Virus record (IMG/VR): IMGVR_UViG_3300012344_000014
Span: 42,581 to 106,580 of that record
Origin: a virus
Taxonomy: Duplodnaviria; Heunggongvirae; Uroviricota; Caudoviricetes
DNA: 64,000 nucleotides
Reading direction: 5' to 3' (one strand)
This document shows positions 38,123 to 38,847 of this stretch, in pieces (positions within the stretch are counted from its first letter, which is position 1; each line of letters begins with the position of its first letter). The notes beneath the pieces are model-generated. The model was not told where the DNA came from. It did no database searches and saw nothing but the letters and a program-made list of their open reading frames with translations. Made by a program: the position numbers and the translations under genes.

Positions 38123-38131
38123 TGATATAAA
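38123..38131 (+). promoter_or_regulatory. extended -10 promoter (TGATATAAA)
   Basis: Followed by the conserved leader TGATATCCGAG..AATATT.AGTCCCTCC, which is shared with the 38488 copy. Confidence 0.45.
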
Positions 38132-38175
38132 TGATATCCGAGGTAATATTCAGTCCCTCCCAAAGGAGAATGAAT

Positions 38176-38421
38176 ATGAAAAAAGGTATCATTATCACGC
38201 TCGCGCTTGTTACATTTCTTGTAGCTGTTTTCAGCTTTGACATTCCGGCAATATCCGCGCTGGGTATTGCTTAGGCGCTGGAAACATTCCTGCGCAAGTG
38301 GGATGGCGCAAGTACAGCCTGTTTGATCGTAAGCCTTTTAGGAATGTACTCTTCTCTGTTTGGATGGATCGGCGTCGCCCTTGCTGCGCTTGATCTATAC
38401 CAGACATAGAGGAAACGATGA
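38176..38421 (+). CDS. small membrane protein, tandem paralogue 1 (in-frame TAGs at 38272 and 38407)
   Basis: AAAGGAG RBS. MKKGIIITLALVTFLVAVF... The region after TAG 38272 (CLIVSLLGMYSSLFGWIGVALAAL) is conserved with paralogue 2. TGA lies at 38419. Confidence 0.55.
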
Positions 38422-38434
38422 AACAGGCGGAGAA

Positions 38435-38461
38435 GAAGCCCCCCACGGGGCTTTTTCTTTT
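38435..38461 (+). terminator. rho-independent terminator
   Basis: AGCCCC-CCAC-GGGGCT followed by TTTTTCTTTT. Confidence 0.7.
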
Positions 38462-38487
38462 ATGGGCTGGAATAAACAGACAGAATA

Positions 38488-38496
38488 TGATATACT
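38488..38496 (+). promoter_or_regulatory. extended -10 promoter (TGATATACT)
   Basis: Has the same leader architecture as the 38123 copy. Confidence 0.45.
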
Positions 38497-38547
38497 ATCA
38501 TTGATATCCGAGAAAATATTTAGTCCCTCCCCGAAAGGAGAATAAAT

Positions 38548-38805
38548 ATGAACAAAGATATCAAAACCAAAGCTGCGCTGTTCCTTGCCGCAGTTAACGT
38601 ACTGCTGGCGATTGCCGGTCTGTTCTTCCCGCTCGCGTCGTTATAGACGCTGGCCTGGGCGCTGGCTGGCTTCCTGCAAAAACAGGACGTCGAAACCGCA
38701 TGCTGTCTCATTGTGGGCCTTTAGGGGATGAGCTTCTCCGCCTTTGGATGGGTCGGACTCGGCATTGCCGTTGCCGCCCTGATACTGGCGCGGAAAGCGC
38801 AATGA
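38548..38805 (+). CDS. small membrane protein, tandem paralogue 2 (in-frame TAGs at 38644 and 38722)
   Basis: AAAGGAG RBS. The first TAG falls at codon 33, as in paralogue 1. The downstream CCLIVGL-TAG-GMSFSAFGWVGLGIAVAAL is conserved in frame. Confidence 0.55.
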
Positions 38806-38815
38806 GACGAAGACG

Positions 38816-38847
38816 GAGCCTTGCTACAAGCAGGGCTCTTTCTTTTT
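38816..38847 (+). terminator. rho-independent terminator
   Basis: GAGCCTTGC-TACAA-GCAGGGCTC followed by TTTCTTTTTG. Confidence 0.65.

What the first reader, a model, noticed from the sequence alone, without database searches (positions are those of the whole stretch)
38123..38847. Tandem duplicated mini-genes with first TAG at the same codon and conserved sequence beyond it
The two units (38123-38461 and 38488-38847) each comprise an extended -10, a conserved leader (TGATATCCGAG..AATATT.AGTCCCTCC..AAAGGAGAAT.AATATG), a small TM protein and a clean terminator. Both frames hit TAG at codon 33 (38272 and 38644), yet the following ~45 codons remain alignable in frame (TACLIVSLLGMYSSLFGWIGVALAAL versus TACCLIVGL-TAG-GMSFSAFGWVGLGIAVAAL). 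Each gene could therefore yield a 32-aa one-TM peptide without suppression and an ~80-aa multi-TM protein with it.
Basis: seen in the sequence. Interest (0 to 1): 0.55.

Follow-up and report, generated by a model that had tools for sequence, protein, structure and literature searches.

The report
Amber-gated small membrane genes, recoded phage
The two "mini-genes" are ordinary full-length genes for small membrane proteins of about 80 residues in a gut phage that reads the stop codon TAG as an amino acid throughout its genome; this kind of recoding is already known, although here the TAGs sit unusually close to gene starts.

Summary
The sequence facts are right. Both ORFs hit TAG at codon 33 (38272-38274 and 38644-38646), and the frame stays alignable beyond it. 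Both have a shared leader and a terminator.

The cause is genome-wide. The window is part of a 112-kb SPbeta-like phage contig in which TAG is a sense codon. In-frame TAGs lie inside single Pfam domains (RemA-like, PAPS_reduct, RuvC), behind the CxxC motif of a glutaredoxin-like gene, and in tail and lysis genes. Only one of 82 genes, the serine recombinase, ends on TAG.

In five sequence variants of the phage, all four mini-gene TAGs are kept. Unit 1 has a second one at codon 78, followed by R-K-R and TGA. Unit 1 evolves under the same purifying selection on both sides of the TAG (dN/dS 0.18 before, 0.16 after).

"Same codon" is not homology. Unit 1's TAG aligns with a TGG in unit 2, and unit 2's TAG lies in a 12-nt internal duplication.

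The amino acid is probably Gln (two CAG-to-TAG correspondences) but is not settled. No suppressor tRNA was found in any sequence examined.

The proteins have no homologues outside this lineage, and their function is unknown. I infer tightly gated, probably toxic membrane proteins, because TAG is about 50-fold enriched in them and their leaders pair the Shine-Dalgarno (SD) sequence and the AUG.

The parts
37166..38071 (+). Upstream neighbour on the same strand: a secreted PG_binding_1 + PASTA protein with no in-frame TAG. Together with the two mini-genes it forms a plus-strand island inside a minus-strand replication module.
   Evidence: Pfam hits. Homologues P0002-P0014 served as anchors to find variants of the locus.
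38097..38131 (+). Unit 1 promoter-like region. Either TTGACG (38097-38102), 18 nt, TATGAT (38121-38126), or an extended -10 TGaTATAAA (38123-38131).
   Evidence: Consensus scan and direct reading of the sequence. Not tested functionally.
38132..38175 (+). Unit 1 5' leader. With codons 1-6 it folds into a three-tier hairpin: CUCC pairs with the SD GGAG, AAUAUUCA pairs with UGAAUAU (including the AU of the AUG), and GAUAUC pairs with GGUAUC of codons 4-6.
   Evidence: Fold -14.3 kcal/mol, z = -3.1. Same architecture in unit 2, with one C-G to U-A compensatory difference.
38176..38421 (+). Unit 1 coding sequence: 81 codons, in-frame TAG at 38272-38274 (codon 33) and 38407-38409 (codon 78), real stop TGA at 38419-38421. 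Two long hydrophobic stretches (about residues 1-39 and 47-75) and a basic C-terminal tail X-R-K-R.
   Evidence: Both TAGs are kept in 5 distinct variants. dN/dS is 0.18 upstream and 0.16 downstream of TAG33 against L078.
38436..38461 (+). Unit 1 intrinsic terminator: AAGCCCC, loop CAC, GGGGCTT, then TTTCTTTTT.
   Evidence: Read directly from the sequence. The scan reported the same hairpin on the minus strand.
38486..38496 (+). Unit 2 extended -10-like box TATGATATACT (TG at 38488-38489, TATACT at 38491-38496).
   Evidence: Read directly from the sequence and aligned with unit 1.
38502..38547 (+). Unit 2 5' leader with the same SD- and AUG-pairing hairpin as unit 1.
   Evidence: Fold -12.8 kcal/mol, z = -4.1.
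38548..38805 (+). Unit 2 coding sequence: 85 codons, in-frame TAG at 38644-38646 (codon 33) and 38722-38724 (codon 59), stop TGA at 38803-38805.
   Evidence: Both TAGs are kept in the L228, L230/L231 and L229 variants; in L229 they fall at codons 31 and 57 because the N-terminus differs.
38815..38849 (+). Unit 2 terminator. In relative L234, which lacks the mini-genes, the same terminator directly follows the PASTA gene.
2630..3811 (+). Tail-fibre-like gene with in-frame TAG at codon 29 (supports phage-wide recoding).
   Evidence: TAG kept in L079 and L081.
4548..5759 (+). Tail protein gene with TAG at codon 24. There is no ATG, GTG or TTG for about 110 codons after the TAG.
8790..9608 (+). 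Glycine-rich tail protein gene with TAG at codon 35. The paralogue at 7677-8765 has CAG (Gln) at the same place in the shared context TYT_Y.ITGSGTLTV.
15174..15488 (+). Membrane protein next to the SpoIID+SH3_3 endolysin-like gene (14250-15158), with TAG at codon 15.
   Evidence: The phrog_4105 match covers residues 9-102 and so spans the TAG. Pfam for the endolysin-like gene. TAG kept in L238.
26852..27064 (-). Glutaredoxin-like gene with TAG at codon 23, after the CPMC motif.
27119..27628 (-). RuvC-like gene with TAG at codon 59, inside the Pfam RuvC match (residues 14-158).
31067..31444 (-). RemA-like (DUF370) gene with TAG at codon 34, inside a full-length Pfam match (residues 6-78).
42202..43062 (-). 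PAPS-reductase-like gene with TAG at codon 116, inside one Pfam domain (residues 25-231).
15905..17533 (-). Large serine recombinase. Its natural C-terminus sits at a TAG (15920-15922), followed by 4 sense codons and TGA.
   Evidence: the DUF4368 match ends at profile position 66 of 67, two residues before the TAG.

Best explanation
The window belongs to a large temperate SPbeta-like phage of gut Clostridia that decodes TAG as an amino acid, most likely glutamine (genetic code 15), at least late in infection. The two units are therefore complete genes of 81 and 85 codons for small paralogous membrane proteins. They are not 32-codon mini-genes.

They form an accessory tandem cassette inserted between the PASTA-protein gene and its terminator. 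Each copy has three features:
- its own promoter-like box;
- a 5' leader that base-pairs with the Shine-Dalgarno sequence and the start codon;
- two in-frame TAGs.

Inferred mechanism. Full-length protein is made only when two conditions are met: the leader hairpin is opened, and the cell has been switched to TAG suppression. Before that switch, ribosomes stop after about 32 residues. This double lock fits a membrane-active, probably toxic, late-acting product (holin-, antiholin- or depolarising-type).

Shown:
- TAG is read through in these genes and across the genome.
- The downstream frame is under selection.
- The leaders are predicted to occlude the SD and AUG.

Inferred:
- The identity of the inserted amino acid.
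- The source of suppression.
- The timing of expression.
- The membrane-toxic function.
For: 1. Recoding across the window.
- In-frame TAGs interrupt single conserved domains: RemA-like Pfam match 6-78 with TAG34 (also aligned across the TAG to PDB 7bm2), PAPS_reduct 25-231 with TAG116, RuvC 14-158 with TAG59, and phrog_4105 9-102 with TAG15.
- Each of these genes has a good ribosome-binding site and start codon upstream of the TAG.
- With TAG read as sense, 82 genes all end in TAA or TGA. Public gene callers using the standard code split the same genes.
- Among variants, true stops flip between TAA and TGA 8 times and never become TAG, while every comparable in-frame TAG is kept.

2. The mini-genes themselves.
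- Five distinct variants (window/L228, L230/L231, L229, L078; 85-98% nucleotide identity over the aligned loci for the first four, about 83-88% across the mini-gene region for L078) keep TAG33 and TAG78 of unit 1. Three distinct unit 2 sequences (window/L228, L230/L231 and L229) keep both unit 2 TAGs. None has an indel or a TAA/TGA stop downstream.
- Unit 1 dN/dS is 0.18 upstream and 0.16 downstream of the TAG. In the six-frame test, only the gene frame and its wobble-sharing antisense frame are low.
- TAG density in the two genes is about 50-fold above the rest of the window, P about 1.5e-6.

3. Leaders.
- Three unrelated leader sequences (window type, L229/L078 unit 1 type, L229/L078 unit 2 type) all fold so that the SD and AUG are paired, z = -2.1 to -4.1.
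- There is a C-G to U-A compensatory difference between the two window leaders.

4. Evidence for Gln.
- The paralogue pair at 7677-8765 and 8790-9608 has CAG against TAG in an otherwise shared context.
- The window has CAG where L230 has TAG in the PDDEXK gene.
- The glutaredoxin TAG aligns with E, N, K, D or G.

5. Literature.
- TAG-recoded gut phages, integrases that avoid recoded stops, and strongly recoded membrane proteins in lysis control are described in bioRxiv 10.1101/2021.08.26.457843, PMC10607447 and PMC9523058.
Against: - No suppressor tRNA, and no tRNA at all. None was found in the window, in 10 kb of the same contig on each side (L080, L082), or in the region upstream of the tape-measure gene in the related contig L232. 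About 84 kb of the 112-kb contig was read directly.
- No release factor or aminoacyl-tRNA synthetase was seen among the annotated genes.
- Several TAGs align with hydrophobic or aromatic residues rather than Gln. These are W and L between the two units, CTG in L079, and Ile or Tyr in RemA homologues.
- The mini-genes lie 23 kb from the endolysin/holin-like cassette (14250-15766).
- They match no holin or other family in Pfam or PHROGs. They have no homologues outside this phage lineage.
- Unit 2 shows weaker constraint, dN/dS about 0.56 from only 16 differences.
- There are no expression data.
Confidence: 0.8

Rival explanations
1. Dual-output genes. The 32-residue single-helix peptide made while TAG is still a stop is itself functional, for example as a type-I-toxin-like or antiholin-like peptide. 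The long form made under suppression has a different or opposing activity, so the TAG acts as a switch between two products.
For: - TAG33 is strictly conserved in all variants.
- The region upstream of the TAG is a complete hydrophobic helix under purifying selection, dN/dS 0.15-0.18.
- SD-sequestering leaders and a small hydrophobic peptide resemble type I toxin mRNAs.
- The cassettes have their own promoter-like boxes and terminators, so they could be expressed from a prophage.
Against: - The same early-TAG layout is found in tail, RemA-like, glutaredoxin-like and other genes, where a ~30-residue fragment has no plausible function. The layout therefore needs no gene-specific explanation.
- No antisense promoter was found on the minus strand across the units.
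- Selection upstream of the TAG is expected anyway, because that stretch is part of the long protein.
Confidence: 0.12
2. Decaying duplicated pseudogenes. The TAGs are nonsense mutations (TGG to TAG), and only short remnants, or nothing, are expressed.
For: - Unit 1's TAG aligns with TGG in unit 2, and unit 2's TAG33 arose in a copy of TGG GCG CTG GCT.
- The L078 unit 2 copy is broken after ...CCLIVG, and L229 carries a decayed extra leader with ATG changed to AGG.
- The family has no homologues elsewhere.
Against: - All four TAGs and the whole downstream frame are kept, without indels, across variants with synonymous divergence around 0.3. dN/dS downstream of the TAG is 0.16-0.32.
- TAG interrupts many essential genes of the same phage.
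Confidence: 0.03
3. TAG is decoded, but not as glutamine. It could instead be read as Leu, Trp or Tyr by a phage tRNA with anticodon CUA lying in the unread part of the genome. That would be a reassignment not so far reported for phages whose code differs from their host's.
For: - Residues aligned with TAG are W, W/L and L between the units.
- CTG (Leu) in the 97%-identical variant L079.
- Ile (PDB 7bm2) and Tyr (L001) at the RemA position.
- Three of the four mini-gene TAGs (codons 33 of both units and 59 of unit 2) lie in hydrophobic stretches; unit 1's codon 78 lies in the polar tail.
Against: - Two clean CAG-to-TAG correspondences, one in an otherwise shared context.
- Polar residues (E, N, K, D, G) at the glutaredoxin position in 17 relatives.
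- TGG to TAG and the CTG case are compatible with ordinary non-synonymous change.
- Prior knowledge: only TAG to Gln has been seen in such phages.
Confidence: 0.15

Closest known systems
TAG-recoded (genetic code 15) gut phages: Lak, crAss-like, Garnet/Amethyst/Topaz clades and phAss-1 (bioRxiv 10.1101/2021.08.26.457843; PMC9523058; PMC10607447)
   Same: - In-frame TAG in structural, lysis and some replication genes.
- TAG almost unused as a terminator.
- The recombinase gene is compatible with the standard code.
- Small membrane proteins are among the most heavily recoded genes.
- Relatives of the phage are binned with standard-code Firmicutes.
   Different: - Very sparse use: about 13 TAGs in 64 kb, usually one per gene.
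- The first TAG is concentrated near codons 15-35.
- GC content is 53%, whereas low GC has been proposed as the route to recoding.
- No suppressor tRNA or release factor in any sequence examined.
- No detectable nucleotide similarity to catalogued phages (blastn of 37100-40600), and at most 31% protein identity for the primase-helicase.
Phage holins and antiholins (for example lambda S105/S107 with its sdi stem-loop)
   Same: - Small proteins with two or more hydrophobic helices and a short basic C-terminal tail (RKR in unit 1, RKAQ in unit 2).
- Translation initiation region buried in an RNA hairpin.
- Expression expected to be strictly delayed.
   Different: - No sequence match to any holin family.
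- Not adjacent to the endolysin-like gene, which has its own neighbouring membrane proteins at 15174-15766.
- No conserved dual-start motif.
- Function untested.
Type I toxin-antitoxin toxins of Firmicutes prophages (reviewed for Clostridia in PMC6563280)
   Same: - Stand-alone cassette with its own promoter and terminator.
- Hydrophobic peptide.
- SD sequestered by the 5' UTR.
- Prophage location.
- Tandem paralogues.
   Different: - The selected product is 81-85 residues rather than under about 60.
- No antisense RNA promoter detected.
- The gate is an amber codon rather than an RNA antitoxin.

Membership tests
Stop-codon (TAG) recoded phage, code 15 | In-frame TAG inside conserved protein domains, with homology continuing on both sides | tested here: met
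   RemA-like, PAPS_reduct and RuvC Pfam matches and phrog_4105 all span a TAG. The PDB 7bm2 alignment also crosses the TAG.
Stop-codon (TAG) recoded phage, code 15 | Gene integrity and coding density restored when TAG is read as sense, and TAG is not needed as a terminator | tested here: met
   82 genes all end in TAA or TGA when TAG is read as sense. Only the recombinase ends naturally at a TAG. Stops flip between TAA and TGA but never to TAG among variants.
Stop-codon (TAG) recoded phage, code 15 | TAG aligns with glutamine in homologues | tested here: inconclusive
   For Gln: two CAG-to-TAG correspondences and polar residues at the glutaredoxin site. Against: W, L, I or Y at five other sites.
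Stop-codon (TAG) recoded phage, code 15 | Phage-encoded suppressor tRNA (anticodon CUA), with or without release factor 2 | tested here: not met
   No tRNA by ARAGORN or Rfam in the window, L080, L082, L232 or L228-L233. About 28 kb of the 112-kb contig itself was never read; the 10 kb upstream of the tape-measure gene was seen only in the related contig L232. Reported recoded phages often lack such genes too.
Holin | Small protein with at least one transmembrane helix and a charged C-terminus | tested here: met
   Hydropathy profile. Tails end in X-R-K-R and R-K-A-Q. AlphaFold predicts one long helix for residues 34-77 of unit 1, pLDDT 87.
Holin | Located in a lysis cassette next to the endolysin | tested here: not met
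   The SpoIID+SH3_3 endolysin-like gene is at 14250-15158, with its own membrane proteins at 15174-15766. The mini-genes lie 23 kb away.
Holin | Sequence membership in a described holin family | tested here: not met
   No Pfam or PHROGs match. No credible homologue among 5.8 billion clustered or 1.84 billion representative proteins.
Type I toxin-antitoxin | Cis-encoded antisense RNA antitoxin | tested here: not met
   No promoter-like site on the minus strand between 38100 and 38900. No Rfam match. A consensus scan is weak evidence.
Type I toxin-antitoxin | Toxin mRNA whose 5' UTR sequesters the Shine-Dalgarno sequence | tested here: met
   Predicted folds of three leader types. Prediction only.
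Programmed stop-codon readthrough giving two products | Both the terminated and the extended product are made and are functional | not testable with these tools
   Needs proteomics or ribosome profiling.

The most novel reading that the evidence does not exclude
In this phage lineage the amber codon works as a positioned gate rather than as a scattered synonymous codon.
- The first in-frame TAG lies at codon 11-35 in 12 of 17 TAG-bearing gene families, and at codon 33-35 in six of them, including both mini-genes.
- That is about the length of nascent chain hidden in the ribosomal exit tunnel.
- Without suppression, the aborted peptide would never emerge far enough to be targeted to the membrane or to fold.
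- The mini-genes, with two gates plus an SD-occluding leader, would be the most tightly locked genes.
- The short peptide could be a second, functional output.
- The decoder (tRNA or other factor), and even the inserted amino acid, may be unconventional, since no tRNA was found.
Probability: 0.2. Interest if true: 0.7.

Novelty: new member of a known kind. Interest (0 to 1): 0.42.

Why it matters
The practical point is annotation. Standard-code gene calling splits or truncates at least 11 genes of this phage, and public gene tables list the mini-genes as 32-residue ORFs.

Biologically, this is a sparsely recoded, temperate, SPbeta-like Clostridia phage with 53% GC. Almost every recoded gene carries a single early TAG, and two accessory membrane-protein genes carry by far the highest TAG density.

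If confirmed, it would be a clean natural system for testing the idea that phages use stop-codon recoding as a translational timer for dangerous late proteins. It would also allow a test of whether the position of the recoded codon matters.

Tried and rejected
- **Closer relatives and synteny.**
  - blastn of 37100-40600 against catalogued phages found nothing.
  - A leader DNA pattern scan of IMG/VR found nothing.
  - PASTA-protein scans of IMG/VR, JGI metagenomes and GTDB genomes found nothing.
  - PARP scans gave more than 200 loci with at most 68% identity, none carrying a mini-gene homologue.
  - A scan with the tail gene at 219-1601 found nothing.
- **All-against-all tally of residues aligned with TAG across 227 loci.** Rejected as uninformative. 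It was dominated by off-frame and antisense ORFs and by bacterial chromosomes.
- **Exhaustive profile search with the C-terminal halves.** Only repetitive, multi-stretch spurious hits.
- **Structure prediction of the full proteins.** Only residues 34-77 of unit 1 could be modelled, as a single helix. No fold search was attempted.
- **RNAalifold on the six leaders.** The three leader types do not align by sequence, so only the 4-bp anti-SD stem was recovered.
- **Walking towards the unread part of the genome.** This used tape-measure-protein homologues and added 10 kb in the related contig L232. No tRNA was found there.
- **Dual-start motif.** Considered for unit 1 (ATG AAT ATG) and rejected, because it is not conserved in unit 2 (ATA AAT ATG).
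- **Link between the PASTA gene and the lysis cassette in L238.** Considered and rejected. The contig carries a truncated PARP gene between them and may be a rearrangement or a chimera.
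Full report
**1. Observation**

- Unit 1 starts at ATG 38176 and has TAG at codon 33 (38272-38274).
- Unit 2 starts at ATG 38548 and has TAG at codon 33 (38644-38646) and again at codon 59 (38722-38724). It ends at TGA 38803-38805.
- Translated through the TAGs, the two proteins are 44% identical over 71 residues (E = 7e-13).
- The 28-nt leader motif occurs exactly twice in the window and never in shuffled sequence.
- Each unit is followed by a GC-rich hairpin and a T-run.

Two corrections are needed.

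First, "the same codon" is a coincidence of counting.
- Both DNA and protein alignments need a 4-codon indel near the N-terminus. That places unit 1's TAG opposite TGG (Trp37) of unit 2, and unit 2's TAG33 opposite Leu29 of unit 1.
- A relative (L078) lacks 12 nt in unit 2. This shows that the window's TAG ACG CTG GCC is a tandem copy of the adjacent TGG GCG CTG GCT.

Second, unit 1's apparent stop (38407-38409) is another TAG.
- It is followed by AGG AAA CGA TGA.
- In every variant the tail is TAG-(R/K)-K-R, followed by TGA or TAA.
- Unit 1 is therefore most likely 81 codons with two TAGs.

**2. TAG is a sense codon throughout this genome**

I called genes with a self-trained codon model.
- Under the standard code, TAG served as the stop in only 3 of 73 calls. 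One of those was the front half of a split gene and one was a dubious ORF.
- With TAG read as sense, 82 genes cover 89% of the window and all end in TAA or TGA.
- Eleven genes then contain in-frame TAGs, counting unit 1, which I added by hand and is not in the 82-gene call. Each has a good ribosome-binding site and start codon upstream of the TAG.

The decisive cases are single domains interrupted by TAG:

| Gene (strand) | Family match | TAG codon |
|---|---|---|
| 31067-31444 (-) | RemA-like, full-length Pfam match 6-78; PDB 7bm2 aligns across the TAG | 34 |
| 42202-43062 (-) | PAPS_reduct, residues 25-231 | 116 |
| 27119-27628 (-) | RuvC, residues 14-158 | 59 |
| 26852-27064 (-) | Glutaredoxin-like; CPMC motif lies upstream of the TAG | 23 |
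| 15174-15488 (+) | phrog_4105, residues 9-102 | 15 |

Three tail genes also carry a TAG. In one of them (4548-5759) there is no possible start codon for about 110 codons after the TAG.

Public gene tables made with the standard code split these genes and list the mini-genes as 32-residue ORFs.

**3. Origin of the window and variants of the phage**

The window is identical to part of Logan contig SRR1747039_750, which is 112,235 bp. Pfam hits in flanking DNA (YonB, YomX_C), together with a PolIII-alpha gene carrying an intein and a large serine recombinase, mark it as SPbeta-like. Distant relatives are binned with Clostridia MAGs.

I used neighbouring proteins as handles and obtained variants at 85-98% nucleotide identity: L079, L081 and L228-L231. 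I also obtained two more distant relatives, L234 and L238.

Codon-by-codon comparison across these variants shows three things:
- Every comparable in-frame TAG is conserved.
- True stops switch between TAA and TGA eight times and never become TAG.
- New TAGs appear in two variants. L230 has TAG where the window has CAG (the PDDEXK gene at 43059-43904, codon 102). L079 has TAG where the window has CTG (gene 9883-10488, codon 11).

**4. The mini-genes in the variants**

- Unit 1 keeps TAG33 and TAG78 in all five distinct sequences.
- Unit 2 keeps both TAGs in the window/L228, in L230/L231 and in L229. In L229 a different N-terminus shifts them to codons 31 and 57.
- No variant has an indel or a TAA/TGA stop after the TAG.
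- Against L078, unit 1 has dN/dS 0.18 upstream and 0.16 downstream of TAG33.
- In a six-frame test of the downstream part, only the gene frame and its wobble-sharing antisense frame are low (0.16-0.32). The other frames are about 1 or higher.
- Unit 2 is less constrained, at about 0.56 from only 16 differences.

The cassettes are accessory. In L234, the PASTA gene is followed directly by the terminator that follows unit 2 in the window; L238 likewise has no mini-genes between the PASTA and PARP genes. L229 carries a decayed extra leader copy, and L078 a truncated unit 2.

The family has no homologues outside this lineage. The clustered protein database gave one hit, P0001, which is from L078 itself. 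The exhaustive profile search gave only spurious repetitive hits. There were no Pfam or PHROGs matches.

**5. Anatomy that bears on mechanism**

TAG density. The two genes carry 4 TAGs in 166 codons, against 9 in about 18,900 codons elsewhere (P about 1.5e-6). They are by far the most TAG-dense genes in the window.

Leaders. With the first six codons, each leader folds into a three-tier hairpin:
- CUCC pairs with the SD GGAG.
- A middle stem includes the AU of the AUG.
- An outer stem pairs GAUAUC with codons 4-6.

The z-scores are -3.1 and -4.1. The two window leaders differ by a compensatory C-G to U-A pair in the middle stem. L229 and L078 carry two further, unrelated leader sequences that also bury the SD and AUG. 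This is structure prediction only.

Proteins. Each has two long hydrophobic stretches and a short basic tail. AlphaFold models residues 34-77 of unit 1 as one helix with pLDDT 87.

**6. Which amino acid, and who decodes it**

For glutamine:
- The in-window paralogues 7677-8765 and 8790-9608 share TYT_Y.ITGSGTLTV, with CAG in one and TAG in the other.
- The CAG/TAG difference between the window and L230.
- The glutaredoxin TAG aligns with E, N, K, D or G in 17 relatives.

Against glutamine:
- W and L between the two units.
- CTG in L079.
- Ile or Tyr at the RemA position.

I take Gln as most likely, at about 0.7. The literature reports only TAG-to-Gln for phages whose code differs from their host's.

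No tRNA of any kind and no Rfam family were found in the window, in 10 kb of the same contig on each side, or in 10 kb upstream of the tape-measure gene in the related contig L232. No release factor or aminoacyl-tRNA synthetase appears among the annotated genes. About 28 kb of the contig itself could not be read. Absence of suppressor genes is common among reported recoded phages.

**7. Interpretation**

The best-supported account is that these are normal full-length genes of a TAG-recoded phage. Their full-length products can be made only once TAG is being decoded.

The combination of the highest TAG density in the window, an SD/AUG-occluding leader, and a small multi-helix membrane product with a basic tail points to a tightly locked, probably toxic membrane protein. 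That is holin-like or type-I-toxin-like in how it would work.

Membership in either family fails on tested features:
- no family match;
- not in the lysis cassette at 14250-15766;
- no antisense promoter found.

The pseudogene reading is refuted by the conservation data. The dual-output reading remains possible but is not needed, because the same early-TAG layout occurs in tail and enzyme genes.

**8. An unexpected regularity**

Across the window, L080 and L232, the first in-frame TAG lies at these codons:

11, 15, 23, 24, 29, 29, 33, 33, 33, 33, 34, 35, 59, 102, 116, 122, 538

- Twelve of 17 fall in codons 11-35, against 2.6 expected. The Poisson-binomial P is about 1e-7, for a window I chose after seeing the data.
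- A Kolmogorov-Smirnov (KS) test of relative position against uniform gives P = 5e-5.
- These early TAGs are not start-calling artefacts. In the cases checked, domain matches, conserved motifs or the lack of any downstream start show that translation begins upstream of the TAG.

I did not find this described in the papers I read.

**9. Verdict**

This is a known phenomenon, phage amber recoding, in an uncatalogued lineage. The finding is largely explained.

Residual interest lies in four points:
- the positional bias of the TAGs;
- the missing decoder;
- the unsettled amino acid;
- the unknown function of the doubly locked membrane proteins.

Noticed in passing
window 2630-43062, plus L080:5199-6290 and L232:1264-1533, 3449-4048, 8143-9795: The first in-frame TAG of recoded genes clusters near the 5' end. 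It falls at codons 11-35 in 12 of 17 gene families, and at codons 33-35 in six of them. Four different genes are called as exactly 32-residue ORFs by standard-code gene callers.
   Followed up: partly
window 38132-38193 and 38502-38562; L229:9640-9700 and 10140-10195; L078:364-434 and 768-838: Three unrelated leader sequences in front of the mini-genes all fold so that the Shine-Dalgarno sequence and the AUG are paired. The two window copies differ by a compensatory C-G to U-A pair.
   Followed up: partly
window 15905-17533 (-): The large serine recombinase ends naturally at a TAG: its DUF4368 domain match ends two residues before it. It would gain only X-N-V-S-L when TAG is decoded, so it is compatible with the standard code, as reported for integrases of recoded prophages.
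   Followed up: yes
window about 43100-64000, and L082:1-9500: The early and lysogeny region has no in-frame TAG in the called genes. It includes the primase-helicase, SSB, tyrosine integrase, AbiEii, an AcrIC5-like gene, Bro-N/ANT and DUF932. Two small genes beyond the window end (L082:1408-1584 and 7635-7985) appear to terminate at TAG.
   Followed up: partly
window 38644-38655: Unit 2's TAG33 lies in a 12-nt tandem duplication (TAG ACG CTG GCC next to TGG GCG CTG GCT). The duplication is absent from relative L078.
   Followed up: yes
L229:9980-10130: There is a decayed third copy of the window-type leader plus N-terminus, with ATG changed to AGG. It sits between unit 1 and a unit 2 that has a different leader and N-terminus, which suggests that leader/N-terminus modules are exchanged.
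   Followed up: no
window 38881-42164 (-): A WGR+PARP, Macro and ATP-dependent DNA ligase gene trio. PARP homologues (28-68% identity) occur in more than 200 phage, metagenome and genome loci, including Clostridia MAGs and many Spirosomataceae chromosomes.
   Followed up: no
window 32578-37089 (-): The PolIII-alpha gene carries an intein (1503 aa). Relatives L229, L230 and L234 have a 1058-aa version without it. The NrdD gene of L234 carries an intein, whereas the window's copy (24534-26855) showed none.
   Followed up: no
window 20103-23308 (-): Auxiliary genes in this region: ClpP-like protease, PhoH-like ATPase and a full-length serine hydroxymethyltransferase (Pfam SHMT, E = 1.6e-158).
   Followed up: no
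L238:5001-8586: In this 8.8-kb contig the PASTA gene is followed by a truncated PARP remnant that is joined directly to the endolysin/holin-like cassette. This is either a genome rearrangement or an assembly chimera. TAG15 of the holin-like gene is conserved there.
   Followed up: partly
window 1-64000; L080, L082, L232: No tRNA gene and no Rfam family at gathering score were found in about 132 kb searched, which is unusual for a phage of more than 100 kb that needs to decode UAG.
   Followed up: yes
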